Positions 5,136 to 20,133 of a stretch of 21,654 nt of DNA are shown in pieces. The number at the start of each line of letters is the position of its first letter. Position 1 is the stretch's first letter. Made by a program: the position numbers and the translations under genes. The stretch lies in the NCBI GenBank assembly GCA_048885535.1, contig JBHLLO010000050.1, positions 1 through 21,654 of the forward strand. Reading direction: 5' to 3'. The notes beneath the pieces are model-generated. The model did no database searches, was not told the origin of the DNA, and saw nothing but the letters and a program-made list of their open reading frames with translations. Source of the DNA: Candidatus Hermodarchaeota archaeon (GTDB taxonomy: Archaea; Asgardarchaeota; Lokiarchaeia; Sigyniarchaeales; SOKP01).

Positions 5136-5520
5136 TTGAATCCCTCATTTTTCAAGCCAATTATCTAATTAAATCAAGTAATTATAATACAATGTAAATA
5201 AAAATCTTTTATTGCTTTTTTAATTAAATCCAATTATTTTTTAGTTTTATATTATTTAATTTCTCAATCAATTAACAAATAGTTTTCGAAATAGGACAAG
5301 AATGACTATTTCTTTAATTATATTTTCAGATTTAACTTATAACGCTAAATAACAAATTATTTAAATAGATACAACATAAAAATTAAAATAAGTATAAAAA
5401 AAATACACTTCTCGATATTAAATTTATTTTCAATATTGGAAGTTTATCAATTTCAAATTTTAAAAAGTCTAAGAACAGATATATATAATTGTAAATTAAG
5501 AGGTGGATGTGTAAAAAAAG

Positions 5521-7464
5521 ATGGAAAAATCTGATACGCATCGGATTGGATACTATGCTTGTCAATGAGGTATTAATATTCGCGGAAAAGTTGATTGTAA
5601 TAAATTAGTGGAGTATGCAAAAGAATTAGATGGTGTCGTAATTTCAAAACAACACAGCTTCCTTTGTACCGAGAGTGGACAAAATGAGATTATTGAGGAT
5701 ATAAATGAAAAAAAATTAAATTGTATTGTGGTATCTGCTTGAACTCCACGTACTCACGAACCTGTGTATAGAGGATCGATAGCCAAAACAGATTTAAACC
5801 CATACTTTTTCCAAATGGTAAATGTGCGCGAGCATTGCTCATGGTGTACAGAAAGCAATGAAGAAGCATTAGATAAAGCTAAGATTCTCATAAAGGCAGG
5901 TGTTGAACGAGGTAAGCGTCTTGAAGCTGTACCAATTAAGACGGTACCTGTTGAAAAAGCAAGTTTGGTTGTTGGTGGGGGAATAGCAGGTATGAATGCG
6001 GCTTTAGATCTTGCAAATCAAGGAATTAAAGTATATTTAGTGGAGAAAAACACAACTATTGGTGGCAGAATGGCAGAATTAGATAGAACATTTCCTACGG
6101 ATGATTGTGCCATTTGAATCTGTGGTCCTAAGATGCTTGAAGTAAATCGAAATGAGAATATTGAAATTCTTAGTTATTCAGAAGTAAAAAAGGTTGAAGG
6201 TTATGTAGGAAATTATGAAATAACTGTAGAAAAGAAACCTCGATATATTAACCCTGAAACCTGTAATGGATGCGGAGCCTGTGCTGAAGTATGTCCTACT
6301 TACACAACAAACTATTTTGATGAGGATTTAGGAGCAAGAAAAACAATTGATATTGCATTTGGTCAAGCTGTTCCGTTTTTATATGATATTAACAGGGAAA
6401 CTTGTGTAGAATGCTTTAATTGTGTTGACGCTTGTGAATTGGATGCTATAGATTTCAGTCAAATACCAGAAGAGGTTAAATTCAAAGTTGGAACAATTAT
6501 TATTGCCACTGGATGGGACATATATGAACCTTTTGGAGAATATGGATATGGGGAATTCACAAACGTGGTCACTCAATCTCAACTTGAAAGAATGTTAGCT
6601 CCAAATGGACCATTAGAAGGACATGTTCGGAGGATTTCTGATGATAAGAAACCTAAGGAGATTGTTTTTATTCAATGCGTCGGAAGCCGAGATACTGAAA
6701 GAACATATTGTAGTGGCGTTTGTTGTATGCTTGCCTTAAAAAACGGAAAGTTACTAAAAGAAGAATTTCCAGGTGCTAATATTACTATTTGCTATATAGA
6801 TATTAGAACTAATGAAAAAGGTTTCGAAGAATATTACCAAAGGGCAAAAGATTCGGATATTCGAATGATTCGTGGGAAAGTGGGGGAGATTTCAGAAGAC
6901 CCAGAAACAAAAAACGTTAAAATACGTGTATATTCATCCTTAACTAATGAAATTATTAATATTGATGCCGATTTAGTAATTTTATCAACAGCAGCATTAC
7001 CTTCTAAAGGTACTCAACAAATTGCTAAGGTTTTAAACTTGGACGTTGATAAAAATGGATTTTTAACTGAATCTCATTTTGGTTTAATGCCACAAGAAAC
7101 AAAAACTAAGGGGATTTTCATTGCTGGATTTGCCCAAGGTCCTAAGGATATAGCTTATTCAGTTTCACAAGCAAGAGCGGCAGCAAGTAAGGTTGCAGAA
7201 CTAACCTCTGCTGGTGAAATTGACTTAGAATTAATTGTAGCAGAAGTAGATAAAGATTTTTGCATTTCATGTAGAAGATGCGAAAAAGAATGCCCAAAAG
7301 GAGCAATTAAGATTACGGAAAAAGAAGGAGCTATCGTTGATGAAATAAATTGTGACGGATGCGGTGTATGCGCGAGTTGTTGTCCTACTCAGGCTATTGA
7401 CATACGATATTATAGAGATCACCAGTTGTATGCTGAAATTGAGGCTCTATTAGGAGGTGATTAA
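5521..7464 (+). CDS. hdrA: Heterodisulfide reductase subunit A, selenoprotein with three UGA-Sec codons (647 aa)
   Basis: One frame from ATG 5521 to TAA 7464 with in-frame TGA at 5566-5568 (RIGYYACQUGINI), 5740-5742 (VVSAUTPRTHE) and 6115-6117 (TFPTDDCAIUICGPKM). Has the GGGIAG FAD motif, internal and C-terminal 2[4Fe-4S] ferredoxin motifs, and the CVGSR...CSGVCC cluster motif. GAGGTG SD at 5500-5505. Confidence 0.95.
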
Positions 7465-7468
7465 ATAG

Positions 7469-7909
7469 TTGGAGGATAGTTTAAAAATATTGATGTTTGC
7501 TTGTCTAAAATGAGGATATAGCGCAGCTGATTTAGCGGGAGTTTCTCGATTAAAATATACACCCTCAGTTAAAATTATAAAAGTTAGGTGCACTGGACGA
7601 ATTGATGTGAAGCACATTTTATATGCGATCAAATCTGGAGCTGATGGTGTTATGGTAGTTGGATGACGACCAGATGAATGTCAATTTAAAACAGGCAATT
7701 TCAAAGCTCAAACACATGTAGATCTAGCTAATAGAATATTAGAACGCCGAGGATTCGGGAACCAACGAATAAATCAATATTGGTTAAGTGGCGCAGAATC
7801 TGAAAAGTTAGTTAAAAGTGTTGAAGATACGGTTGAAAAAATAAGACGTATAGGTAAAAATCCTATTTACAAAATAAAATCAAAAAAAAAATCAAGCGTA
7901 GCCCCTTAG
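7469..7909 (+). CDS. mvhD: MvhD/VhuD/FlpD [2Fe-2S] subunit, selenoprotein with two UGA-Sec codons (146 aa)
   Basis: Not in the ORF track. TTG start 8 nt after a GGAGGTGA SD. Translates as MEDSLKILMFACLKUGYSAADLAGVSRLKYTPSVKIIKVRCTGRID...GADGVMVVGURPDECQF...WLSGAESEK...SSVAP*, with TGA at 7511-7513 and 7664-7666. Confidence 0.95.
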
Positions 7910-7969
7910 AATGAATCTTATAAGGAAATATTTGTTATAAGACGACTAACCATGCGTTGGTTAAGGGGT
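7901..7969 (+). promoter_or_regulatory. SECIS element (eukaryote/Lokiarchaeota-type, AUGA/GA core)
   Basis: Outer helix GCCCCTTA (7901-7908) pairs with TAAGGGGT (7962-7969). The core ATGAA (7911-7915) sits opposite CGAC (7943-7946). A perfect 8-bp upper stem TCTTATAA/TTATAAGA (7916-7923/7935-7942) is capped by the loop GGAAATATTTG, which contains AAA. It lies immediately 3' of two UGA-containing genes. Confidence 0.85.
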
Positions 7970-8016
7970 GTTTAAATAATTTTAAAAGTTTAAAAAATAG
8001 AATAAATGGAAATAAT

Positions 8017-9513
8017 ATGGTTCAGGTTGTGAATGAGAAATCATTCGGTGGAATTTCTCCGAAAAATTTAATTGAAGCAACATATAAAGCTTCGGAAAAT
8101 TTCCAAATTAGAGCATTTTACGAATCGAAAGATGAAATCTTGAAAGCTGCAAAATACTCTGAGAGAGAGTTTTTTGAGATAATAGATGCCATGTTAGACG
8201 CTGAAACTGAACGAAAGATTGTATTAGAGACGCTTAGAGGAAATAAACCCTTATTTTTAGAAGAAATAATAAAAATTGTAAAAGAGTTTCCACCTGATAA
8301 TGTTATACGGGATATAATCTATTTAAAGGAACAAGGATTTATTGAGGAACACATAGAGGTTAAAACTAAAATAGTTATAAAAAAAGTAAAAGGGGAAGAA
8401 AAGGAAGTAGAAGAAAAAGAATATTTCTATAGATATGAAGTAAAGGAATTACCAGATGATTTCATAGAAAATTATTTAGACCCTATTTCAATTGTTTTTG
8501 ATGCTGGTGTATGCTGCCAATGCGGATGGTGTTCCTCAATTTGCCCAGTCAACGCCATTGAAGTCACAGCAGACACTTTAGAAATTGATGATGAAAAATG
8601 TATGAAGTGTGGTTTATGCTTTACCGTTTGCCCCCGTACTTTTTCAATAGATCAAGCCTATAAAAGCATTAAGCAATTAGATAAATATCTTACCTGGTCA
8701 GAGAAAATTGGTGCCTATCTAAATGCTTATTCAGGAGCTACGACCAAAGACGCAATAAAAAAAGTGAAACAAGATGGTGGAGTTGTTACATCCTTGTTAG
8801 AATATCTATTAGAGAATAAGTTGGTGGATGCGATCATTGCTGTGCAACATTCAAAAGATTTATGGAGACCAGAACCAGTAATAGTTGATAATGTAAAGGA
8901 TTTATATAAGACTGGTGGTACTAAATATGCAAATGCTGCCTCGTTATCAATTATCGAAGCTGCTAAAAAGTATGAGAGAATAGCAGTTGTGGGGGTTCCT
9001 TGTATGATGAAAGCAATTGAGAAAGGAAATCTCTTTCCAAGTGGGTTACCTTTTTTTAAAAACATAAAATATACAATTGGATTGTTTTGTATGGAATCTT
9101 TTCCTTATGAAGGAGTAGTACAGTTAACTAAAGACAAATTCGATAAGGATATTAATGATTTAGTAAAAATGAATATTGATAGTGGAAAGTTCATAATTAA
9201 TTTAAAATCTGGTGAAAAATTAGATATAGATTTGAAAGAAGTTAAATCTTATGCTCGTAATAATTGTCATTATTGTGAAGATTTAACTTCTGATTATGCT
9301 GATATTTCAGTTGGTTCAATTGGATCCCAAGGAGGATGGTCTTCTGTTATTACTCGAACAAAGGAAGGAGATGAAATTTATCAGGGCGCAGTAGATGCTG
9401 GATTAATTGAATCTCAGAGTCTAAAAGAAATTAAGCCAGGATTAGGTCTTTTGGAGCGAATATCAGGATTAAAAAGAAAAAATTGTAAAATAATTGAACT
9501 TAAAAAGGAGTAA
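8017..9513 (+). CDS. FrhB/FdhB-family coenzyme F420 oxidoreductase beta subunit with N-terminal helical/winged-helix-like extension and ferredoxin domain
   Basis: Motifs CCQCGWCSSICP, CMKCGLCFTVCP, QDGGVVTSLL, GTKY, VGVPC, IGLFCME and CHYCEDLTSDYADISVGSIGS. The start was moved to ATG 8017 because the track start at 7957 lies inside the SECIS. Confidence 0.88.
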   Translation: MVQVVNEKSFGGISPKNLIEATYKASENFQIRAFYESKDEILKAAKYSEREFFEIIDAMLDAETERKIVLETLRGNKPLFLEEIIKIVKEFPPDNVIRDIIYLKEQGFIEEHIEVKTKIVIKKVKGEEKEVEEKEYFYRYEVKELPDDFIENYLDPISIVFDAGVCCQCGWCSSICPVNAIEVTADTLEIDDEKCMKCGLCFTVCPRTFSIDQAYKSIKQLDKYLTWSEKIGAYLNAYSGATTKDAIKKVKQDGGVVTSLLEYLLENKLVDAIIAVQHSKDLWRPEPVIVDNVKDLYKTGGTKYANAASLSIIEAAKKYERIAVVGVPCMMKAIEKGNLFPSGLPFFKNIKYTIGLFCMESFPYEGVVQLTKDKFDKDINDLVKMNIDSGKFIINLKSGEKLDIDLKEVKSYARNNCHYCEDLTSDYADISVGSIGSQGGWSSVITRTKEGDEIYQGAVDAGLIESQSLKEIKPGLGLLERISGLKRKNCKIIELKKE

Positions 9514-9517
9514 TATT

Positions 9518-10630
9518 ATGAGTTCAAAAACTTTTGAAGATTTAATCAAAGAAGTCCACGAAAAGGGTATTTGTCAAGAATGTGGAGGTTGTGTATCATT
9601 CTGTTCTTCAGCGGAGTATGATGTAATTGGCTTAAAGGATCAATATAAACCTCCTGAATATATTAATAAAGATAAATGTCTCGAGTGTGGCATCTGTTAT
9701 TATTTATGTCCGCAAACTCATATACTAGACGATGATTTGAATAATATATACAATTTCTCAGACTTTTCTTCAACACCTATAGGACATTATGTAGATATAT
9801 ATTCCTGTCAGGCTACTGATCCAGAATTTTTAAAATATGGTACTGATGGTGGAGTTGTTAATTCAATTATTAATTTCTTAATTGAAACGAAGGTAATAGA
9901 TGGTGCCATAGTATCTAAAACTGATGCTCCTTTTTCTAGAGAAGCAACATTTGCTGATAGCAAGTATGATTTATTAAAAGCCTCAGGAGCCAAATTAGAT
10001 ATAACTCCACAATTAAATGAGATACAAAAATTTTGTACATATACTCATTCTATTCCAAAATTAAATCATTACAAGTTTAAAAAATTAGCAATAGTTGGCA
10101 CACCGTGTCAGATATATACTATTAGATGTATGCAAGATTTAGGAGTCACTCCCTCTGAAAATGTTGAGATTTGTCTTGGTTTGTTTTGTTATGAGAACTT
10201 TTTTTTTGAAAAATTTCAAATTGAAAAATTTGAAAAAGACTTTAATATACAATTTAAAGATATTATAAAGATAAATATTAAGAAAGATGTGATTTTTAAA
10301 CTAAGGAGTGAGGGTCCTACCGAAAAAATCATTAATATTCCTTTTAATCATTTGGACGATTATATGCGACCAGCGTGTAATGCTTGTAGTGATTTTACTA
10401 ATATTTACGCAGATATATCATTTGGGGGATTAGGATCTCCAGATAAACACACAACTGTAATAATTCGAACTAATAAAGGAAAAGAAGTGTTTAAAAAAGC
10501 TGTTAATGCAGGGATAATAACCAGCAGAGAGATGGATGAGATAAAAAAGAAGAAAATGTTAGAATCAATTATAGAATATTCAAAATCAAAAGTATCACGC
10601 AAAGAAAAATTTATGCAGAAAATAACTTAA
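9518..10630 (+). CDS. Second FrhB/FdhB-family F420 oxidoreductase beta subunit
   Basis: Motifs CQECGGCVSFC, CLECGICYYLCP, TDGGVV, VGTPCQ, LGLFCYENF and CNACSDFTNIYADISFGGLGS. ATG 9518 follows an AAGGAG SD at 9505-9510. Confidence 0.9.
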   Translation: MSSKTFEDLIKEVHEKGICQECGGCVSFCSSAEYDVIGLKDQYKPPEYINKDKCLECGICYYLCPQTHILDDDLNNIYNFSDFSSTPIGHYVDIYSCQATDPEFLKYGTDGGVVNSIINFLIETKVIDGAIVSKTDAPFSREATFADSKYDLLKASGAKLDITPQLNEIQKFCTYTHSIPKLNHYKFKKLAIVGTPCQIYTIRCMQDLGVTPSENVEICLGLFCYENFFFEKFQIEKFEKDFNIQFKDIIKINIKKDVIFKLRSEGPTEKIINIPFNHLDDYMRPACNACSDFTNIYADISFGGLGSPDKHTTVIIRTNKGKEVFKKAVNAGIITSREMDEIKKKKMLESIIEYSKSKVSRKEKFMQKIT

Positions 10631-10729
10631 AGAGGGAAAAGTATAACAGAATCAAAAAGAGATTTAGAAAGGAAGAAAATATTCGGTGATACGTTAGAAT
10701 ATTTAGAAAAAATCTATGAATCAAACTTA

Positions 10730-11890
10730 ATGAGTTTACTAAAAAAGTGTTATCAATGCGGACGTTGTAGTGGTGTCTGTCAATTAAGTAAAGTGCAAAA
10801 GTTTCCTCCAAGTAGGATAATTCAATTAATCTTAGAAGGGTTTGAGGATAAAGTATTGAATTCAGGTGTTTTATGGGATTGCCTTACGTGTAATCAATGT
10901 TTAAAAGATTGTCCTGAGAAAATCAACTTTGCAGATATAGTTAGAATTGCAAGGTATAAAATGAGACATGAAGCAAACCAAAAATCCGATGAACTCATTG
11001 CTCATAAGGGAATTTACACAACAATAGCAGAAATAATGAGTAGACCATATATAACTCCAGAAAGATCATTGGATTGGGTACCGAAAGGCTGTAAAATATC
11101 CGATAAAGGAGAGCTTCTTTATTATGTAGGATGTCTGCCTTTTTATGAATATGAATTTGAAGATTCAGATACTATAGCTAAAAGTACTCTAAATCTTTTA
11201 TGTCAAATTGAACAGAAACCAATAGTAGTTTTAAAAGAAGAAAGTTGCTGCGGTCACGATCTTTACTGGGGACAGGGCAAATTGAAGACGTTTATCAAAT
11301 TAGCGAAGAAGAACTTGGAGAAATTCGAAAAAGCGGGAGTCTCCACCATAATAACCGCATGTGCAGAATGTTATCGAACCTTTAAAGTTGATTATCCTAA
11401 TATTTTTGAGAACTTTTCAACTAAATTTAATGTAAAACATATAATTGAATATATTTACGATAAATGGAAACAAAATAAAATATTTTTTAAGAAACCAAGT
11501 AAAAAAGATATAGATACAACATTCACGTATCACGATCCTTGCAGATTAAGTAGATTTTTACCAGAGGACAATAATTTAACTGAAAAAGTAAGAGAAATTT
11601 TTAATGAATTAACAAAGCTAGGTTTTAATTTTAAGGAAATGAAACATAATAAGCAAAATTCTCTCTGCTGTGGAGTAAATTCTTGGATGAACTGTAATGA
11701 GAGATCTAAAGCCCTTAGATATAAACGTATGCTAGAAGCAAAATCAGCAGCATCCTTAATGATTACTACTTGTCCTAAATGTGAAATTCACTTTAAATGT
11801 CTACAGAATGATTTCGAAGATATTGCAAATATTAAGATTTTGGATTTTTCAGAATTCATAATAAACAACCTAGAAATAGTTGAGGGATAG
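10730..11890 (+). CDS. HdrD/GlpC-like Fe-S protein (HdrC-type 2[4Fe-4S] domain plus two CCG domains); start may be ATA at 10643
   Basis: Motifs CYQCGRCSGVC and WDCLTCNQCLKDCP, then YYVGC...CCG...TACAEC and YHDPC...CCG...TTCPKC. Confidence 0.88.
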   Translation: MSLLKKCYQCGRCSGVCQLSKVQKFPPSRIIQLILEGFEDKVLNSGVLWDCLTCNQCLKDCPEKINFADIVRIARYKMRHEANQKSDELIAHKGIYTTIAEIMSRPYITPERSLDWVPKGCKISDKGELLYYVGCLPFYEYEFEDSDTIAKSTLNLLCQIEQKPIVVLKEESCCGHDLYWGQGKLKTFIKLAKKNLEKFEKAGVSTIITACAECYRTFKVDYPNIFENFSTKFNVKHIIEYIYDKWKQNKIFFKKPSKKDIDTTFTYHDPCRLSRFLPEDNNLTEKVREIFNELTKLGFNFKEMKHNKQNSLCCGVNSWMNCNERSKALRYKRMLEAKSAASLMITTCPKCEIHFKCLQNDFEDIANIKILDFSEFIINNLEIVEG

Positions 11891-11894
11891 TAGA

Positions 11895-14800
11895 ATGGAA
11901 GGATCTGTCTTAGTGATAGGTGGTGGTATAGCAGGAATTCAAACTTCATTAGATTTAACAGAGTTAGGATTCAAGGTCTATTTAGTGGAAAGAAATCCAT
12001 CAATCGGTGGCCGTATGGCACAACTTGATAAAACTTTTCCAACAAATGATTGTAGCCTTTGTATCTTGGCTCCTAAAATGGTGGAAGTCTTTAGAAATCC
12101 AAATATAGAACTCATGACTTATCATGAAGTATTAAGTGTATCTGGGAAAGTTGGAGACTTCACAATTAAAATTTTAAAAAAGCCAAGATATATAGATGAA
12201 ACGAAATGTAAGGGATGTGGCGATTGTTCTCAACGTTGTCCAAAAATTGAGGTTCCAAATTTATTTGATATGAAGTTAGGCAAAAGAAAATCTGTATACA
12301 TCCCCTTCCCGCAAGCTGTGCCTCCTATTTATCTAATAGATCCTGAAATCTGCCTTAAATTGACTAAAGGGGTATGCGGTGTATGTGAGAAAGTCTGTGA
12401 AGCTGAAGCAATTGATTACGAACAGAAACCTCAAGAAATTAACATTAATGTGGGAGCAATTGTGGTTGCAACTGGGTTTGATATGCCCGCAGAAGAATTA
12501 TCATCCAGATGGGGTTATCATTATAAAAATGTAATTAGTGCTTTAGAATATGAAAGAATTTTATGTGCTTCAGGACCATTCGGAGGGCACGTCTTACGTC
12601 CAAGTGATGAAACTGAGCCTGAAAAGATTGCTTTTATACAATGCGCTGGTTCAAGAGACTTACATGAAAATGTCCCTTATTGCTCAAGTGTTTGTTGTAT
12701 GTATATCAGTAAGGAAGCTATTATCACTAAAGAACATTCAGAAAAGGCAAAATGCTTTGTCTTTAGACACGATATTCGAGCTTATGGTAAAAACTTCTAT
12801 GAATTTACCCAGAGAGCGCAAAATGAATATGGTGTAGAATATTTTCAAACTAAGATAAGTCGAATCGAAGAGGATCCAGATACTAATGATTTGATTATAC
12901 ACTATGAAGATTTGCAAACAGGAGAGTTTAAGGATTTCAGAAGTAATTTAGTAGTATTAGCTACACCATTAGTTCCATCAAGTGGTACAGTTGAATTGAG
13001 CAAAAATGTAGGTATAGAATTAGATAAATATAATTTCTTTAAAGAAAGATCATATTTTAATAAATCACTGTCATCAAAGGAGGGTGTGTTCTTATGTGGT
13101 TTTTGTCAAGGACCAATGGATATTCCAGAAACCGTAGCAGATGCAAGTGGAGTAGCATCCCAAATTGCTTTACTACTAAATTCTGTAAAGTTCAAAGCCA
13201 TAAAAGAAAAAATTAGGGAGAAAGCTGAATTAGAAGTTAAAATCTCTGATGAACCTCGAATCGGGGTTTTAATTTGTCATTGCGGGATAAATATTGGAAA
13301 ATATATTGATGTCTCTGGAGTTGTGGAATATGTGAAAACTTTACCTTACGTAGCTCACTGTGAAGCCAATCTATATTCTTGTTCAAGTGATTCTCAAGCA
13401 CGAATTAAAGAAGTGATTGAGGAAGAAAATTTAAACAGGTTTATTGTTGCTTCTTGTACTCCTCGAACTCATGAAGCCTTGTTTCAAGAAACCTGCCAAG
13501 AAGCCGGTTTGAATAAATACTTGTTCGAGATGGTTAATATTCGCGATCAATGTTCTTGGGTTCATATGAATGAGTACGAATTTGCTACTGAAAAAGCCAA
13601 AGATTTAATTAGAATGGCTGTCGCAAAAGCTCGTTTATTGAAACCTCTCAAAGAAGCACTATTAGACATAACTCCAACAGCCTTAATAATTGGTGGTGGA
13701 GTTTCAGGTATGACTGCAGCTTTAAATATCTCTAATCAAGGATTTAAAGTATTTTTAGTAGAAAAAGAAAAGAAACTAGGAGGAATTTTGAATAACTTAA
13801 ACATTTTATACCCTGTTCATGAGGATGCTTCAAAATTTCTGGAGAATATAATAAGTAAAGTAAAAAGCAACAAAAACATTGAATTATTTTTAACCTCTAA
13901 AATTGAAAGTATAAAAGGTTATATTGGAAATTATGATGTTGCAATTATTGACTCAAAACAAAAAGTTCATAATTGTAAAATTGGAACTATTATAGTCGCA
14001 ACAGGAGCCCAAGAATTAAAACCAAATGGTATTTTTCAATACGATGAAAAAAACAAAAACGTAATTACTCAACTCGAATTGGAGGAGAAATTAAAAAGCA
14101 AAAATGTATCATGGTTAGATAAAATTGAAAGAATAACGGTTATTTTATGCGTAAACTCTCGGCAAAAAGAAGGAATAACATATTGTTCTAATGTTTGCTG
14201 TGGAGTAGGTATTAAGAATTTAAGTTTATTAAAGGAATTAAAACCTGAAATTGAGATTGTCGTTCTTTATAGAGATTTGCAAATGGCTAAGAAAGAATTT
14301 GAAGATTATTATCGAGAGCGTCGAAAAAATGCAATATTTCTTAGATATGATTTAGAAAGATTACCAAAAATCAAAAAAGTCAATAATAAAGAGGAAAAAT
14401 ATAAAATTAGTTTATTTGATACTAATTTACAAGAAGATATTGAATTTGATACAGATTTAATAATACTGTCAACTCCTATGATTCCTGATAGTAACTTAAA
14501 AGAGTTAGCAAAAATGCTTAAAGTACCATTAGATAAGAATGGATTTTTCTTAGAAGCCCATGTTAAACTTAGACCTTTAGATTTCGCAACTGACGGAATA
14601 TTTCTAAGTGGTTGCGCTCAATGGCCGAAAAATGTTCAAGATGCAATTGCTCAAGCTAATGGTGCTGCTGGAAGGGCTAGTAGATTTTTAAGTGCGAAAA
14701 CTATAACAACTTCAGGATTAATAGCTGAAGTAAATACAGGCAGATGTATTGGATGCGGAAAATGTGAATCTGTTTGCCCATATAACGCTATTGAACTTAA

Positions 14801-14978
14801 AGAAGTATTAATGGAGTTTGAGGAAATTAGCATAAAGGTAGCAAAATCGTTCATTAACACAGCATTATGTAAGGGTTGCGGTACTTGTGCGGCTACATGT
14901 CCAAACGGAGCAATTTCAGTTAAGCATTATGATTTTGATCAAATATACGCTATGATCGAATCTTATTTATTAGAATGA
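11895..14978 (+). CDS. hdrA: Large HdrA-like flavoprotein with two FAD modules (Cys-containing)
   Basis: Two FAD motifs (GGGIAG and GGGVSG), TFPTNDCSLCILAPKM, an internal CHCG...CTPRTHE...NIRDQCSW module and ferredoxin motifs. ATG 11895 follows a GAGGGA SD and matches the start of the paralog at 17365. Confidence 0.92.
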   Translation: MEGSVLVIGGGIAGIQTSLDLTELGFKVYLVERNPSIGGRMAQLDKTFPTNDCSLCILAPKMVEVFRNPNIELMTYHEVLSVSGKVGDFTIKILKKPRYIDETKCKGCGDCSQRCPKIEVPNLFDMKLGKRKSVYIPFPQAVPPIYLIDPEICLKLTKGVCGVCEKVCEAEAIDYEQKPQEININVGAIVVATGFDMPAEELSSRWGYHYKNVISALEYERILCASGPFGGHVLRPSDETEPEKIAFIQCAGSRDLHENVPYCSSVCCMYISKEAIITKEHSEKAKCFVFRHDIRAYGKNFYEFTQRAQNEYGVEYFQTKISRIEEDPDTNDLIIHYEDLQTGEFKDFRSNLVVLATPLVPSSGTVELSKNVGIELDKYNFFKERSYFNKSLSSKEGVFLCGFCQGPMDIPETVADASGVASQIALLLNSVKFKAIKEKIREKAELEVKISDEPRIGVLICHCGINIGKYIDVSGVVEYVKTLPYVAHCEANLYSCSSDSQARIKEVIEEENLNRFIVASCTPRTHEALFQETCQEAGLNKYLFEMVNIRDQCSWVHMNEYEFATEKAKDLIRMAVAKARLLKPLKEALLDITPTALIIGGGVSGMTAALNISNQGFKVFLVEKEKKLGGILNNLNILYPVHEDASKFLENIISKVKSNKNIELFLTSKIESIKGYIGNYDVAIIDSKQKVHNCKIGTIIVATGAQELKPNGIFQYDEKNKNVITQLELEEKLKSKNVSWLDKIERITVILCVNSRQKEGITYCSNVCCGVGIKNLSLLKELKPEIEIVVLYRDLQMAKKEFEDYYRERRKNAIFLRYDLERLPKIKKVNNKEEKYKISLFDTNLQEDIEFDTDLIILSTPMIPDSNLKELAKMLKVPLDKNGFFLEAHVKLRPLDFATDGIFLSGCAQWPKNVQDAIAQANGAAGRASRFLSAKTITTSGLIAEVNTGRCIGCGKCESVCPYNAIELKEVLMEFEEISIKVAKSFINTALCKGCGTCAATCPNGAISVKHYDFDQIYAMIESYLLE

Positions 14979-14997: not shown

Positions 14998-15435
14998 ATG
15001 CCAAAAGCAAAAGCAAAGGTGAAAGGTCAAGAATTTAACCCTGAAATCTTAGTATTCTGTTGTAACTGGTGTAGTTATGCTGGAGCGGATTTAGCAGGGG
15101 TTTCAAGGTTCCAATATCCTCCCAATATGAGAATAGTAAGGGTTATGTGTTCTGGAAGAGTCGACCCTGCATTTGTTTTAAAGGCTTTAAAGGAAGGAGC
15201 TGATGGAGTATTAATCACAGGTTGTCATATTGGTGATTGTCATTATATTTCCGGAAATGAGTATGCTAAAGAAAGATTTGAAAGATTGCATAATGTTATT
15301 ATTAAACAACTTGGAATTAATGAAAAAAGAGTAAGGTTAGAATGGGTCTCAGCGTCAGAAGGGAAGCGGTTTGCTGATTTAATTACTGATTTTACAAATC
15401 AGATAAAAGAGTTAGGACCTTTAAAAGTACTATAG
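14998..15435 (+). CDS. mvhD: MvhD/FlpD [2Fe-2S] subunit (Cys-containing)
   Basis: Motifs FCCNWCSYAGADLAG, RVMCSGRVDP, GADGVLITGCHIGDCHY and WVSASEG. AAGGAG SD upstream. Confidence 0.95.
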   Translation: MPKAKAKVKGQEFNPEILVFCCNWCSYAGADLAGVSRFQYPPNMRIVRVMCSGRVDPAFVLKALKEGADGVLITGCHIGDCHYISGNEYAKERFERLHNVIIKQLGINEKRVRLEWVSASEGKRFADLITDFTNQIKELGPLKVL

Positions 15436-17364: not shown

Positions 17365-20133
17365 GTGGAAGGTTCAGTTTTAGTTATTGGTGGGGGCATC
17401 GCTGGAATTCAAACATCGTTAGATCTAACGGAATTAGGGTTTAAGGTATTTTTAGTTGAGAAGGAACCATCAATTGGAGGTCATATGGCCCAATTTGATA
17501 AACTGTTTCCAAAGGATGATTGTAGTCTGTGTATTTTAGCTCCAAAGATGGTTAGTGTCTATAGAAATCCCAACATTGAACTTTTTACATTATCTGAAAT
17601 AAAAGAAGTAAAAGGAAAAGTTGGAAATTTCAAGGTAACTATTGTAAAACGTCCTAGATATGTTGATGAATCCAAATGCAAGGGTTGTGGTGATTGCGCT
17701 AAGCGCTGCCCAAAGATAGAAGTTCCAAATTTATTTGATATGAATTTAGGGAAGAGAAAGTCAATATATATGCTTTTTCCTCAAGCAACTCCTCCTGTAT
17801 ATATGATCGATCCTGAATTATGTTTATATTTAAATAGAGATGTATGTGGAGTGTGTAAAAAGGTATGTAAAGGGGATGCAATTGATTTTGAACAAGAATC
17901 TCAAGAAATTGAGATAGAAGTTGGAGCAATTGTAGTAGCGACTGGATTTGATATGCTTGGTAAAGAGCTCCCCCAAAAATGGGGTTATCAATATAAAAAT
18001 GTAGTTAATGCTTTAGAGTATGAAAGGATACTGTCTCCTACTGGACCTTTTGGACCTCAAATCCTAAGACCTAGTGATGAAGTTGAGCCTGAAAGTATTG
18101 CTTTTGTTCAATGTGCAGGCTCTGGGTATTTAAAAGAAAATGTACCCTATTGTTCCCGTGTTTGCTGTATGTATGTTGCTAAAAATGCTGTGTTAAGTAA
18201 GAATTATGCAGAAAATACTCAAATAACTATATTTAGACATAATATTCGAGTATTTGGAAAAAATTTTTATGATTATACTAAAGCTGCACAAGAAGAATAT
18301 GAAATTAATTACATAAATTCAGAAATCAATTCTATTGAAGAAGATCCCGAAACTAATGATTTGATCATTAATTATGATGATTTAAAAACTGGAGAAAGCA
18401 ATTTATCTTTCCGGGTTAAACTTGTTGTGTTAGCTCCTCCTCTAATTCCTTCAAAAGGTGCCTCAAATTTAGCAAAGATTTTAGGAATTGAACTTGATGA
18501 TTTTGGTTTTTTTAGAGAAACATCGTATTTTAATAAATCGCTTTCTTCTAAAAATGGAATATATCTATGTGGTTTTTGTCAGGGTCCTATGAATATCTCT
18601 GAAACTGTGGCTCATGCTAGTGGAGTAGCTTCACAAGTTGCAACCTTATTAAATTCGGTTAGATATTCCTTGATACGGGAAAAGGAAATTGATATACGTC
18701 CTGAAGAAGAAATCATTGATATTACACCTAGAGCCTTAATAATTGGTGGGGGTATTTCAGGTATGACTGCTGCATTAAATATTAGTAGTCAGGGATTTGA
18801 AGCTGTTATCGTAGAAAGAGAAAACATGTTGGGGGGAAATTTGAATCGGTTACACCAAATATATCCAATAAAGCAAGATCCTTCATCTATCGTTAATGAA
18901 CTAAGAGAAAATGTGGATACCGCGAATAACATCGAAGTATTTCTAAATTCTAAAATTGAGGAAGTGAATGGTTCTATTGGAAAGTATGAAATAGTTATTA
19001 GAAAAACTGACTCTGAAATAAAAAAGATGATTGTAGGAGTTATAATTATAGCTACTGGAAGTCAAGAATTTAAACCTTATGGTTTCTTCCAATATGGTGA
19101 AAACTTTAAAAATATTCTTACTCAAATGGAGTTAGAACAGAGACTAAAAAGTAATGATTTTTCCTGGCTTAAGAATATAAATCATTTCACAACAATTATG
19201 TGTGTTAATGCAAGACAAAAAGGAGGATTCGCATATTGTTCAAATATTTGTTGTAGTAATACTATTAAAAACATTAATATTCTAAAGGAACTAAAACCAG
19301 ATCTTGAGGCGGTTGTGCTTTTTAGGGAACTCCATATGGCTAAAAAGGAATTTGAGGATTATGTAAGTAAAAGGAAGAAGTTAGCTAACTATTTAAAATA
19401 CGATCTAGAAAACATACCAGAGATTATCAACATTAAAGAAAAACCTGAGAAATTTGAAATTAAATTAAGGGATGCCCAAAATACTGAAAAAAGTATAAGC
19501 TTTAAAACTGATTTGATAATTTTATCAACTCCTATGATTCCACCTGAAGGAATAGACGAATTAGCAAATATATTAAATGCCCCCTTAGATAAATTTGGGT
19601 TCTTTATAGAAGCTCATAAAAAGTTACGACCATTGGATTTTTCAGCTCATGGTGTTTTTGTTTGTGGGTGTGCTCAATGGCCAAAAAATATTCAAGACTC
19701 AATTTCAGAAGCGAATGGAGCTGCAGGAAGAGCAAGCAGGTTTTTAAATATAAGAAAAATATCTACAACAAAATTAGAATTGCTTTCATTTTTACTTTCA
19801 ATAGAATGCTTTTTCAAGGATATCAAAGTGAATGCTGAAAAATGCAACGGGTGTGGAAGATGTGTAGAGGTTTGTGAATTTAAGGCAATTTCTCTTAATG
19901 ATCTAAAACAAGAATATGAGGATGTTAGTATTGCTACAAAGAAAGCCTTAATAAATTCAGCTATTTGTAAGGGATGCGGAAAATGTTCAGCAACATGTAG
20001 ATTAAAAGCAATATATCCGCGACATTATGACTTTAAACAAATCTCAGCTATAATTGACCCTTATTTTCTAGGAAAAGTGGAATCTGAACAGATAACCTCT
20101 AATAGTGAAGAATTCTCTCTAATTAAAAGTTAA
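17365..20133 (+). CDS. hdrA: HdrA-like two-FAD-module paralog lacking the internal CHCG Fe-S module
   Basis: Collinear with and highly similar to 11895-14978; both begin MEGSVLVIGGGIAGIQTSLDLTELGFKV. GTG start with a GGGGA SD. Confidence 0.9.
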   Translation: MEGSVLVIGGGIAGIQTSLDLTELGFKVFLVEKEPSIGGHMAQFDKLFPKDDCSLCILAPKMVSVYRNPNIELFTLSEIKEVKGKVGNFKVTIVKRPRYVDESKCKGCGDCAKRCPKIEVPNLFDMNLGKRKSIYMLFPQATPPVYMIDPELCLYLNRDVCGVCKKVCKGDAIDFEQESQEIEIEVGAIVVATGFDMLGKELPQKWGYQYKNVVNALEYERILSPTGPFGPQILRPSDEVEPESIAFVQCAGSGYLKENVPYCSRVCCMYVAKNAVLSKNYAENTQITIFRHNIRVFGKNFYDYTKAAQEEYEINYINSEINSIEEDPETNDLIINYDDLKTGESNLSFRVKLVVLAPPLIPSKGASNLAKILGIELDDFGFFRETSYFNKSLSSKNGIYLCGFCQGPMNISETVAHASGVASQVATLLNSVRYSLIREKEIDIRPEEEIIDITPRALIIGGGISGMTAALNISSQGFEAVIVERENMLGGNLNRLHQIYPIKQDPSSIVNELRENVDTANNIEVFLNSKIEEVNGSIGKYEIVIRKTDSEIKKMIVGVIIIATGSQEFKPYGFFQYGENFKNILTQMELEQRLKSNDFSWLKNINHFTTIMCVNARQKGGFAYCSNICCSNTIKNINILKELKPDLEAVVLFRELHMAKKEFEDYVSKRKKLANYLKYDLENIPEIINIKEKPEKFEIKLRDAQNTEKSISFKTDLIILSTPMIPPEGIDELANILNAPLDKFGFFIEAHKKLRPLDFSAHGVFVCGCAQWPKNIQDSISEANGAAGRASRFLNIRKISTTKLELLSFLLSIECFFKDIKVNAEKCNGCGRCVEVCEFKAISLNDLKQEYEDVSIATKKALINSAICKGCGKCSATCRLKAIYPRHYDFKQISAIIDPYFLGKVESEQITSNSEEFSLIKS

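What the first reader, a model, noticed from the sequence alone, without database searches (positions are those of the whole stretch)
5521..6132. HdrA with three selenocysteines, two in the N-terminal Fe-S domain
Seen in sequence: U16 (CQUG, versus CHCG in the paralog at 11895), U74 (SAUTPRTHE versus ASCTPRTHE) and U199 (DCAIUICGPKM versus DCSLCILAPKM). From my recollection, Methanococcales HdrA carries a single Sec, in the DCxxU motif. The two extra sites fall on conserved Cys of the N-terminal [4Fe-4S]-binding domain. Inference: this cluster may be ligated by more than one selenolate, which would shift its potential in an electron-bifurcating enzyme. An extra Cys two residues after U199 gives a CxxUxC motif. 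I cannot confirm that this three-Sec pattern is unreported.
Basis: partly seen in the sequence, partly recalled or inferred. Interest (0 to 1): 0.85.

Follow-up and report, generated by a model that had tools for sequence, protein, structure and literature searches.

The report
Three-selenocysteine HdrA in an Asgard archaeon
This is a real heterodisulfide-reductase A gene of a Loki-type Asgard archaeon with three selenocysteine codons; such multi-selenocysteine HdrA genes were published in 2016, but all the selenium sites gather around one iron-sulfur cluster of the enzyme.

Summary
hdrA (5521-7464, +) has in-frame TGA at codons 16, 74 and 199, each aligned to a Cys of solved HdrA structures (5ODC Cys13, Cys71, Cys197). 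They are read as Sec. The three TGAs are kept in 22 of 22 same-genus orthologs, while dN/dS between them is 0.03-0.05. A Loki-type SECIS follows the downstream 2-Sec vhuD. The genome has tRNA-Sec, SepSecS, an EFSec-like and a PSTK-like gene, and SelD. TGA is otherwise a normal stop.

The kind is not new. Mariotti et al. 2016 (PMC4989117) described Lokiarchaeota HdrA with up to four Sec at five positions, in hdrA-vhuD tandems sharing one SECIS. Most orthologs here carry four Sec and one carries five; the window copy appears to have lost Sec49.

The ligand idea is plausible but unproven. Columns 14, 16, 49 and 74 are the only invariant Cys of the N-terminal domain, which carries the HA3 "shuttle" [4Fe-4S] cluster. 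Residue 199 belongs to the Cys pair that contacts that cluster. Sec appears at 4 of these 6 columns but at 1 of 20 other cluster-Cys columns. Whether the Sec are fixed ligands or exchangeable relay residues remains open.

The parts
5521..7464 (+). hdrA coding sequence, 647 aa, stop TAA. It is a selenoprotein with three Sec. ATG 5521 lies 14 nt after GAGGTGG (5500-5506).
   Evidence: Full-length match to solved HdrA. The ATG aligned to this start is present in most orthologs.
5521..5925 (+). N-terminal alpha/beta domain (aa 1-135), the domain that carries the HA3 'shuttle' [4Fe-4S] cluster in solved HdrA. Its only invariant Cys/Sec columns are 14, 16, 49 and 74.
   Evidence: AF2 model pLDDT 94.3, with strands 9-14, 39-45, 68-73 and 97-101. 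Foldseek to 5odc_A: TM 0.92, rmsd 1.3 A. Invariant columns.
5566..5568 (+). TGA = Sec16 (CQUG), aligned to 5ODC Cys13.
   Evidence: TGA in 22 of 22 orthologs. U in 9 of 81 rows of the wide set, all Asgard.
5665..5667 (+). TGT = Cys49, aligned to 5ODC Cys46. It is Sec in most orthologs.
   Evidence: TGA in 18 of 22 orthologs and TGC/TGT in 4. On the quick tree the Cys state sits inside a four-Sec clade.
5740..5742 (+). TGA = Sec74 (SAUTPRTHE), aligned to 5ODC Cys71.
   Evidence: TGA in 22 of 22 orthologs. U in 3 of 81 rows of the wide set.
6106..6123 (+). C196-A-I-U199-I-C201. It holds the conserved Cys pair (5ODC Cys194/Cys197), with the canonical Sec at 199 (TGA 6115-6117) and an orthogroup-specific extra Cys201.
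   Evidence: Literature on the pair.
7469..7909 (+). vhuD (MvhD/FlpD family), 146 aa, 4 nt after the hdrA stop, with its own stop TAG. It has Sec15 (TGA 7511-7513) and Sec66 (TGA 7664-7666). The start is uncertain: TTG 7469 or the ATG of Met9.
   Evidence: PF02662 E 8.6e-44. NF045873 VhuD 154 bits, below its cut-off of 215. Both Sec align to the X positions of solved VhuD 9sfi_K, and U15 aligns to MvhD Cys16 of 9sw2_D.
7911..7945 (+). Loki-type SECIS. It consists of ATGA (7911-7914), an A.C pair, an 8-bp stem (7916-7923 with 7935-7942), an 11-nt loop GGAAATATTTG, then C and GA. It is the only such element in the window and presumably serves all five UGAs, which lie 247 to 2345 nt upstream.
   Evidence: hairpin -9.2 kcal/mol, z -1.86. 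The same element occurs at the same place in 21 of 22 orthologs, with compensatory stem changes. Genome-wide there are 9 pattern hits against 0-2 in shuffles, and 3 of them follow the three TGA-bearing hdrA-vhuD pairs.
8017..11890 (+). Downstream context on the same strand: two FrhB/FdhB-family proteins (8017 or 7957 to 9513, and 9494 to 10630) and an HdrD/HdrBC-like CCG-domain protein (10730-11890). They are candidate partners of this HdrA-VhuD pair; that role is inferred.
   Evidence: Pfam and NCBIfam.

Best explanation
This is a functional hdrA-vhuD selenoprotein operon of a Promethearchaeota (Loki-type Asgard) genome.

Decoding. One eukaryote-like 'lokiSECIS' hairpin lies just after vhuD. 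Together with tRNA-Sec and an EFSec-like factor it directs Sec insertion at five UGA codons of one bicistronic message: three in hdrA and two in vhuD. The single shared message and the role of the SECIS are inferred.

Protein. It is a full HdrA-type electron-bifurcating flavoprotein. It has the FAD/thioredoxin-reductase fold and all Cys for clusters HA1, HA2, HA4, HA5 and HA6.

Where the Sec sit. All three Sec belong to a single redox site. U16 and U74 are two of the four invariant Cys positions (14, 16, 49, 74) of the mobile N-terminal domain. [quoted passage not shown] U199 is the second residue of the conserved C-x-x-C/U pair of the flavin domain. In solved complexes this pair lies next to HA3 of the partner protomer.

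Most likely mechanism (inferred, about 0.6). At least two selenolates are in the first coordination sphere of HA3 in at least one conformational state: U199' plus U16 and/or U74. Selenium would ease ligand exchange and one-electron transfer at this site as the arm swings.

The window copy is a three-Sec derivative of a four-Sec orthogroup (Sec16, 49, 74, 199).
For: Real Sec decoding:
- The TGAs align to Cys of solved HdrA.
- TGA is kept at codons 16, 74 and 199 in 22 of 22 orthologs, with dN/dS 0.03-0.05 between them and dS above 1.
- The SECIS at 7911-7945 is conserved, with compensatory stem changes, in 21 of 22 orthologs. It is genome-specific: 9 hits against 0-2 in shuffles.
- The machinery is present: tRNA-Sec 61 bits, SepSecS (15), SelD with one TGA (16), an EFSec-like gene at 230 bits on the tRNA-Sec contig (62), and a PSTK-like gene (63).
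- TGA closes 194 of 1279 long frames, so it is a normal stop.
- The hdrA stop is TAA and vhuD lies 4 nt downstream with two Sec at the positions of solved VhuD. This matches the published Loki pattern.

Site assignment:
- Columns 14, 16, 49 and 74 are the only invariant Cys of the domain.
- In the AF2 model they sit at the C-terminal ends of strands 1, 2 and 3.
- The model superposes on solved HdrA at TM 0.92.
- Cys197 of the other protomer is described as a ligand of the N-terminal cluster, together with Cys of the N-terminal domain (passages of PMC9012536).
- HA3 is called the isolated 'shuttle cluster' that moves with the arm (passages of PMC12350162 and PMC13580544). When it is away from the pair it must be held by the domain's own residues.

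Sec pattern:
- Sec occurs at 4 of the 6 HA3-site Cys columns but at 1 of 20 other cluster-Cys columns (hypergeometric P = 0.0047).
- Sec does ligate clusters in this lineage. L036 has TGA at the third Cys of a CxxCxxCxxxC ferredoxin motif. Mariotti reports a similar C-terminal case.
Against: - No coordinates could be inspected, so which of residues 14, 16, 49 and 74 ligate HA3 is not shown.
- Mariotti et al. 2016, writing before any structure, stated that these Sec positions are not the cluster-coordinating Cys.
- Recent cryo-EM papers do not treat Cys197/Sec197 as a plain ligand. In M. maripaludis Sec197 appears bonded to a Cys. In M. marburgensis the pair binds an unknown ligand. In BamE the pair forms a disulfide 3.4-3.5 A from the cluster.
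- The Cys of MvhD equivalent to VhuD Sec15 is called an additional, non-ligand Cys. By analogy U16 could be such a residue.
- His79 is also invariant and could in principle be a ligand.
- The enrichment test uses columns, not independent events. Cys14 and Cys196 are never Sec (0 of 114 distinct rows), which a pure 'all ligands alike' picture does not explain.
- The window SECIS departs from the consensus: an A.C pair at the stem base and a GGAAA instead of AAAAA loop start.
- There is no protein, selenium or expression data.
Confidence: 0.85

Rival explanations
1. The Sec residues are real, but they are redox-active relay residues or exchangeable ligands beside HA3, not fixed cluster ligands. 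U199 with C196 (and perhaps C201) would cycle through a selenenylsulfide. U16 with C14 (a CxU motif) would be the N-domain counterpart, like the 'additional' Cys16 of MvhD. HA3 would then be held by other residues, or would swap one ligand between U16 and U199' as the arm moves. This would resemble ferredoxin:thioredoxin reductase.
For: - Sec197 is seen bonded to a Cys, with a proposed thiol-selenol shuttle (PMC13518236).
- A Cys59-Cys62 disulfide forms 3.4-3.5 A from cluster E3. MvhD has a Cys near the 2Fe-2S cluster that forms a disulfide, and this residue is Sec19 in BamF (preprint 10.64898/2026.04.10.717634).
- The Cys202/Cys205 pair and MvhD Cys16 are called 'additional' conserved Cys that bind an unknown ligand (PMC13580544).
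- VhuD U15 aligns to MvhD Cys16.
- Sec16 plus Sec199 is the commonest two-Sec combination among Asgard paralogs (12 rows labelled UCCU).
- Cys14 and Cys196, the would-be partners, are never Sec.
Against: - Positions 49 and 74 have no neighbouring partner Cys, yet they are Sec in 18 and 22 of 22 orthologs.
- A [4Fe-4S] cluster that travels with the N-terminal domain needs four ligands, and the domain offers only four invariant Cys.
- Homology of the N-terminal domain to MvhD, on which the U16 analogy rests, is weak here. Pfam finds no FlpD match. hhalign gives E 0.0034 over 47 columns only. Foldseek TM to MvhD chains is 0.50-0.54, no better than to unrelated alpha/beta folds.
Confidence: 0.3
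2. The TGAs are true stops. The gene would be a pseudogene, or only a shortened protein would be made from a start at 5764 or 6133 that lacks the N-terminal domain.
For: Table-11 ORFs exist from 5764 (117 aa) and 6133 (443 aa). Natural HdrA forms without an N-terminal domain exist, for example the fused paralog at 17365-20133.
Against: - dN/dS is 0.03-0.05 in segments 17-73 and 75-198, with saturated dS.
- All three TGAs are kept in 22 of 22 orthologs, where any other codon or any other stop would be expected under decay.
- SECIS and Sec machinery are present.
- A start at 6133 would remove the FAD-binding GxGxxG and the Cys pair.
Confidence: 0.02
3. UGA is read here as another amino acid (Cys, Trp or Gly) by near-cognate read-through or a changed genetic code, not as Sec.
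For: One relative (L051) has GGA (Gly) at column 16. Cys is the residue at these columns in most homologs.
Against: - TGA is an ordinary stop in this genome (194 of 1279 long frames).
- In-frame TGAs sit only on Cys columns and are accompanied by a conserved SECIS and a complete Sec pathway.
- The same columns are Sec (X) in solved Methanococcus HdrA and VhuD.
Confidence: 0.03

Closest known systems
Lokiarchaeota multi-Sec HdrA in hdrA-vhuD tandems with one shared lokiSECIS (Mariotti et al. 2016, PMC4989117; passages read, figure and supplements not seen)
   Same: - Several Sec in HdrA, always including the canonical position near 200, all on conserved Cys.
- vhuD immediately downstream on the same strand.
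- A single AUGA...GA hairpin after vhuD.
- An hdrA stop that is not TGA.
   Different: - Nothing in kind differs. I could not see which Sec combinations they list, so I cannot say whether the 16/74/199 pattern itself is in their set.
- They wrote, before the structures, that these positions are not cluster ligands. The later structural literature places them at the HA3 site.
- The window SECIS has an A.C pair at the stem base and a GGAAA loop start.
Methanococcales HdrA(U) with a single Sec197 (solved: 9sfi_A; PMC13518236)
   Same: Full-length homolog (E 1.1e-204). Sec at the same column of the DCxxU motif. vhuD with two Sec next to it.
   Different: - The Methanococcus protein has Cys at the columns of 16, 49 and 74, and Leu at 201.
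- The methanogen uses an archaeal-type SECIS; that point is taken from the 2016 and 2024 papers and was not tested here.
- NCBIfam HdrA equivalog cut-offs are not reached (605 against 1400 bits), so the substrate need not be CoM-S-S-CoB.
VhuD/MvhD and BamF, the [2Fe-2S] adaptor proteins with Sec at the 'additional' Cys
   Same: The Cys/Sec layout is similar: C-x(1-2)-U after the first strand, Cys after the second, U after the third. VhuD U15 equals MvhD Cys16, and BamF has Sec19 at that residue.
   Different: - The HdrA N-terminal domain binds a [4Fe-4S] cluster, not a [2Fe-2S] cluster.
- Sequence homology is not demonstrable here, and the fold match is only generic.
Ferredoxin:thioredoxin reductase type chemistry, that is a [4Fe-4S] cluster next to a redox-active disulfide. 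The analogy is drawn in the BCRII preprint; details of FTR are recalled, not tested.
   Same: A Cys/Sec pair lies within bonding distance of a [4Fe-4S] cluster, with one member able to bind the cluster.
   Different: The fold and family are different. No evidence here that HdrA reduces a disulfide at this site.

Membership tests
HdrA-type electron-bifurcating flavoprotein | Full-length similarity to structurally solved HdrA, with the domain order N-terminal domain, TrxR/FAD domain, inserted ferredoxin, C-terminal ferredoxin. | tested here: met
   phmmer against 9sfi_A (E 1.1e-204), 5odc_A (1.9e-196), 8rvu_a (6e-194) and 7bkb_A (1.1e-167), covering residues 5-646.
HdrA-type electron-bifurcating flavoprotein | All cluster Cys and the FAD-binding motif are present. 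| tested here: met
   Cys or Sec at columns 14, 16, 49, 74, 196, 199, 248-258, 295-305, 386, 397, 401, 402, 581-591 and 611-621. The GGGIAG motif is present.
CoB-CoM heterodisulfide reductase HdrA (NCBIfam equivalogs NF041778, NF041891, NF040770) | Score above the curated equivalog cut-off. | tested here: not met
   778 bits against a cut-off of 1100 (HdrA2). 608 against 1300. 605 against 1400. It is therefore a member of the HdrA family, but it cannot be named a CoM-S-S-CoB reductase.
Selenoprotein (UGA read as Sec) | In-frame TGA aligned to Cys or Sec in homologs and conserved under purifying selection. | tested here: met
Selenoprotein (UGA read as Sec) | A SECIS element and the Sec machinery are present in the genome. 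| tested here: met
   SECIS. tRNA-Sec, SepSecS, SelD, EFSec-like and PSTK-like genes. The EFSec-like hit scores 230 bits, below the bacterial selB cut-off of 242.
Selenoprotein (UGA read as Sec) | Selenium is actually incorporated into the protein. | not testable with these tools
   No proteomic or labelling data are available.
Loki-type hdrA-vhuD tandem with shared lokiSECIS (Mariotti 2016) | vhuD directly downstream on the same strand with a very short gap, and an hdrA stop that is TAA or TAG. | tested here: met
   The gap is 4 nt and the stop is TAA. The gap is 4-8 nt in the orthologs whose vhuD start was called cleanly.
Loki-type hdrA-vhuD tandem with shared lokiSECIS (Mariotti 2016) | A single SECIS after vhuD, built of AUGA, a 9-bp stem, an 11-nt A-rich loop and GA. 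| tested here: met
   There is one pattern hit in the window's contig, at 7911. It has 8 Watson-Crick pairs plus an A.C pair, and an 11-nt loop that starts GGAAA rather than AAAAA. Rfam has no matching family.
VhuD/MvhD (Pfam FlpD, PF02662) for the downstream gene | A Pfam match above the cut-off and two Sec at the canonical positions. | tested here: met
   148.9 bits against a cut-off of 22.3. U15 and U66 align to the X positions of 9sfi_K.
Sec as a direct ligand of the HA3 [4Fe-4S] cluster | Se-Fe bonding distance in a structure, or a spectroscopic signature. | not testable with these tools
   Only indirect evidence exists: invariance, position in the model, and literature statements.

The most novel reading that the evidence does not exclude
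In Loki-type Asgard HdrA, selenium substitution is aimed at one redox site only: the mobile low-potential 'shuttle' cluster HA3 and the Cys pair that docks onto it. Most orthologs of this gene carry Sec at 16, 49, 74 and 199. They would therefore hold a natural [4Fe-4S] cluster with three or four selenolate ligands. The window copy would have two or three. Different paralog clades sample different subsets of these positions (16+199; 49+199; 49+74+199). This natural 'selenium scan' would mark exactly the residues whose role in flavin-based bifurcation the 2026 structure papers leave unresolved. I found no paper that maps the Loki Sec positions onto HA3. Supplements, Wagner 2017 and Watanabe 2021 could not be read.
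Probability: 0.5. Interest if true: 0.6.

Novelty: new member of a known kind. Interest (0 to 1): 0.35.

Why it matters
As a gene it is ordinary for its lineage. Multi-Sec HdrA next to 2-Sec VhuD with one shared SECIS has been known in Lokiarchaeota since 2016 and was surveyed across Asgard archaea in 2024.

What may be useful is the position of the Sec sites. They coincide with the N-terminal cluster HA3 and the conserved Cys pair. Structure papers of 2025-2026 name these as the unresolved step of HdrA-type electron bifurcation: how electrons pass between the [2Fe-2S] cluster or HA3 and the flavin over 20-30 A.

A lineage that has replaced up to four of these six sulfurs by selenium, in varying combinations, gives a testable hint about which residues do chemistry there. 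It is also a candidate for a naturally selenolate-ligated [4Fe-4S] cluster.

Finally, it is an example of one SECIS serving five UGAs up to 2.3 kb away.

Tried and rejected
- Rfam scan of 5300-8300 at E up to 10 gave only two chance hits and no SECIS family.
- Pfam finds no FlpD/MvhD match in the N-terminal domain, only a chance hit at E 0.29.
- hhalign of the N-terminal domain against VhuD is weak. E is 0.0034, probability 9%, over 47 columns, with U74 placed on VhuD U66.
- Foldseek lists MvhD chains at TM 0.50-0.54, but riboflavin synthase and other alpha/beta folds score as well. A specific N-domain/MvhD relationship is therefore not shown here.
- Wagner et al. 2017 and Watanabe et al. 2021 are not held. 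The ligand list of HA3 therefore rests on secondary statements.
- One literature search on residue numbers returned only unrelated papers.
- Supplements of the 2016 and 2024 selenoproteome papers, which list the Sec positions per gene, could not be opened.
- The look-up of sequencing runs listed no RNA holder.
- Read laying used assembled contigs of four runs of one study, probably the source sample. They showed no differing letter at the three TGAs where they cover them, which is not independent support.
- The careful tree did not finish, so the quick IQ-TREE with SH-aLRT only was used. The first attempt was not run.
- SECIS pattern hits for the distant loci L043, L045, L047 and L048 (7-bp stems or odd distances) look spurious and were not counted.
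- Complex prediction was not used because it would not report ligand geometry.
Full report
1. The observation

The frame from ATG 5521 to TAA 7464 on the + strand is open under table 11, except for three TGA codons at 5566-5568, 5740-5742 and 6115-6117.

phmmer aligns almost the whole length to every solved HdrA: 9sfi_A at E 1.1e-204, 5odc_A at 1.9e-196, 8rvu_a at 6e-194 and 7bkb_A at 1.1e-167. In the printed alignments U16, U74 and U199 face Cys13, Cys71 and Cys197 of 5ODC. C14, C49 and C196 face Cys11, Cys46 and Cys194. The Methanococcus-type chain 9sfi_A carries X (Sec) at the 199 column only.

2. The TGAs are decoded, not stops

A search of 40 related genomes found an ortholog of at least 80% identity in 22 of the 24 same-genus genomes. 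These orthologs hold 3 TGAs in 4 loci, 4 TGAs in 17 loci and 5 TGAs in 1 locus.

- In a codon-level alignment, TGA is present at codons 16, 74 and 199 in 22 of 22 orthologs.
- Codon 49 is TGA in 18 and TGC/TGT in 4.
- Codons 14, 196 and 201 are always TGT/TGC.
- Between the TGAs the protein is under strong purifying selection. dN/dS is 0.054 (codons 17-73), 0.030 (75-198) and 0.025 (200-646) against L021, and 0.050, 0.049 and 0.038 against L022, with dS above 1.

This excludes a start at 5764 or 6133 and excludes a pseudogene.

TGA is an ordinary stop elsewhere in the genome. It closes 194 of 1279 stop-to-stop frames of at least 300 codons, and it ends the fused hdrA paralog in the window.

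The genome is 3.09 Mb in 112 contigs and 91.6% complete. It encodes:
- tRNA-Sec (61 bits);
- SepSecS next to it (385 bits);
- an EFSec-like GTPase on the same contig (230 bits, just under the bacterial selB cut-off);
- a PSTK-like KTI12-family protein (131 bits);
- a SelD homolog with its own in-frame TGA.

3. The operon and its SECIS

Four bases after the hdrA stop begins a 146-aa FlpD/MvhD-family gene (PF02662, E 8.6e-44). It has two in-frame TGAs. Both align to the X positions of the solved Methanococcus VhuD (9sfi_K), and U15 aligns to Cys16 of M. marburgensis MvhD (9sw2_D).

One base after its TAG stop lies ATGA, an A.C pair, an 8-bp stem, an 11-nt loop and C-GA (7911-7945).

- The same element sits 432-463 nt after the hdrA stop in 21 of the 22 orthologs; the remaining locus ends before that point.
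- It also follows the two other TGA-bearing hdrA paralogs of this genome.
- The stems differ by compensatory changes, for example TCTTATAA/TTATAAGA, TCCTGTAA/TTACAGGA and TCTTACAA/TTGTAAGA.
- A strict pattern finds 9 sites in the whole genome, against 1, 2 and 0 in three shuffles. Three of the 9 follow the three hdrA-vhuD pairs that contain TGA.
- Rfam holds no family that matches.

This is the arrangement described for Lokiarchaeota: hdrA always upstream of vhuD, a very short gap, one lokiSECIS after vhuD with a 9-bp stem and 11-nt loop, and an hdrA stop that is never TGA (passages of PMC4989117). It was confirmed across Asgard archaea in 2024 (passages of PMC11227280). The window element deviates slightly, with an A.C pair at the stem base and a loop that starts GGAAA.

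The closest named relatives are MAGs labelled Promethearchaeota/Promethearchaeia. The best is 86% identical.

4. It is not new in kind

[quoted passage not shown] They also wrote that one lokiSECIS may serve up to six UGAs over about 2 kb.

The window gene is therefore a further member of that class, and not its extreme. On a quick tree its orthogroup has 24 rows on a long, fully supported stem. Of these, 19 have Sec at 16, 49, 74 and 199. The other 5, including the window, have Cys at 49 and are scattered inside the group, which suggests loss of Sec49 (quick search, SH-aLRT only). One ortholog (L036) has a fifth TGA at column 301.

5. Where the Sec sites lie

In 80 diverse HdrA loci from archaea and bacteria plus the window (81 rows):

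| Column | Cys or Sec | Exceptions |
|---|---|---|
| 14 | 80 of 80 filled rows | none |
| 16 | 79 of 80 | one Gly (L051) |
| 49 | 80 of 80 | none |
| 74 | 80 of 80 | none |
| 196 and 199 | 81 of 81 | none |

No other Cys of the first 135 residues is invariant.

An AlphaFold2 model of residues 1-135 (pLDDT 94.3) is an alpha/beta domain. Cys14 and Sec16 sit at the end of strand 1, Cys49 just after strand 2 and Sec74 just after strand 3. The model superposes on the N-terminal domain of 5odc_A at TM 0.92 and rmsd 1.3 A.

According to Chadwick et al. 2022, who summarise the crystal structure, the N-terminal cluster is bound by Cys of the N-terminal domain plus Cys197 of the other HdrA protomer. Later cryo-EM papers call this cluster HA3 the isolated "shuttle cluster". 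[quoted passage not shown]

Sec usage follows this site:

| Column | Rows with Sec (of 81) | Where |
|---|---|---|
| 199 | 22 | 12 Asgard rows and 10 bacterial rows |
| 16 | 9 | rows labelled as Asgard lineages only |
| 49 | 3 | rows labelled as Asgard lineages only |
| 74 | 3 | rows labelled as Asgard lineages only |
| the 20 other cluster-Cys columns | 0 | none |

Counting L036 as well, Sec is seen at 4 of the 6 HA3-site columns and at 1 of the 20 others. The hypergeometric P is 0.0047, or 0.013 if Mariotti's C-terminal case is added. Columns are the units of this test, not independent events.

Columns 14 and 196 are never Sec in the 114 distinct rows examined.

6. What this means mechanistically

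The following steps are inference.
- A [4Fe-4S] cluster that travels with the domain needs four ligands, and the domain offers four invariant Cys.
- If three of them plus Cys197' are the ligands, as reported for the crystal, then at least one of U16 and U74 binds iron, together with U199'.
- If all four bind when the arm is away from the pair, then both do.

Sec can be a cluster ligand in this lineage: L036 has Sec at the third Cys of a canonical CxxCxxCxxxC motif.

The recent literature weighs against a simple picture.
- In M. maripaludis, Sec197 appears bonded to a Cys, and a thiol-selenol shuttle is proposed (PMC13518236).
- In M. marburgensis, the Cys202/Cys205 pair binds an unidentified ligand and is called dynamic. 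These residues correspond to 196/199 here by the offset of the 8rvu_a match. MvhD Cys16 is grouped with them as an "additional" Cys (PMC13580544).
- In the HdrA-like BamE, the pair forms a disulfide 3.4-3.5 A from the equivalent cluster in one state and lies 16 A away in the other. BamF has Sec19 at the MvhD position (preprint).

The rival reading is therefore that the Sec are exchangeable ligands or relay residues. I give it about 0.3. I could not settle the question because no tool gives coordinates and the primary structure papers are not held.

An analogy between the N-terminal domain and VhuD (U16 with U15, U74 with U66) is suggested by the layout and by a weak hhalign match. It is not established.

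7. Context

Downstream on the same strand lie two FrhB/FdhB-family genes and an HdrD-like CCG-domain gene. Then come a fused double HdrA with a Cys-type MvhD, and further on a second fused HdrA.

HdrA plus VhuD together cover the Methanosarcina HdrA2 model, an HdrA-MvhD fusion, at 778 and 135 bits. This is below the equivalog cut-off of 1100, and the methanogen HdrA equivalog cut-offs are not reached either.

The protein is thus an HdrA-family bifurcating flavoprotein. Its physiological disulfide and electron donor are not established. An F420H2- or flavin-dependent donor acting through the FrhB-like proteins is a guess from gene order.

8. Verdict

The class is already published, and the window copy is an ordinary member, in fact a slightly reduced one. 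The part worth keeping is the mapping of all Sec-prone positions onto the HA3 site. The 2016 paper could not make this mapping, and I did not find it in the open literature searched.

Noticed in passing
L022-L041 and L049 (orthologs); L036 for column 301: Most orthologs of this gene have a fourth Sec at column 49 (18 of 22). One (L036, genome G012) has a fifth TGA at column 301, the third Cys of the CxxCxxCxxxC motif of the inserted ferredoxin domain. That would be an unambiguous Sec ligand of a [4Fe-4S] cluster if it is not an assembly error.
   Followed up: partly
window 6121-6123: Cys201, two residues after Sec199 (C-x-x-U-x-C), is kept in 22 of 22 orthologs and in L049. It is Leu, Glu, Met, Phe or Ser in the other 79 rows of the wide set. 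It occurs only in the orthogroup with the most Sec. Its role is unknown.
   Followed up: partly
window 11880-14978, 14998-15435 and 17365-20133: There are two fused double-HdrA genes. The first has a TrxR unit with the DCSLC pair, then an N-terminal-type cluster domain (CHCG ... ASCTPRTHE), then a second TrxR unit without the pair, and is followed by an all-Cys MvhD. This is the 'complementary' heterodimer-in-one-chain layout that Chadwick et al. 2022 describe for ANME and Moorella. The second fused gene shows no match to the N-terminal domain.
   Followed up: partly
G000 C57:8856(+), C58:18196(-), C15:16465(+): Three further lokiSECIS-pattern hits lie just after short frames with in-frame TGA. 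One is a VhuU-like C-terminus (...VYCULSCAAH...). One frame has adjacent Sec codons (...VGCUUEK...). One is a small hydrophobic protein with GGGUPC. The last two may be less usual selenoproteins.
   Followed up: no
G000 C18:36617-38536 and C28:26271-28190: The same genome has two more selenoprotein hdrA paralogs (51% and 48% identity). Each has Sec at columns 16 and 199 only, and each has its own SECIS after the downstream gene. There are also at least two all-Cys full-length paralogs (C13, C4).
   Followed up: partly
L051:122-2041 (record labelled Hodarchaeota MAG): This locus has GGA (Gly) where its closest relatives have TGA at column 16. It is the only row of 80 without Cys or Sec there. 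It may be a one-base assembly or strain difference.
   Followed up: no
L069, L076, L079, L080, L083, L085, L087, L089, L092, L128: Ten bacterial HdrA loci also carry TGA at the canonical column 199, but none carries TGA in the N-terminal domain. They are labelled Deltaproteobacteria, Syntrophaceae, Zixiibacteriota, Planctomycetota/Phycisphaerales, Chloroflexia, KSB1, WOR-3 and one unclassified bacterium.
   Followed up: no
G000 C73:8104-14710: tRNA-Sec, SepSecS and the EFSec-like gene lie within about 6 kb of each other on one contig.
   Followed up: no
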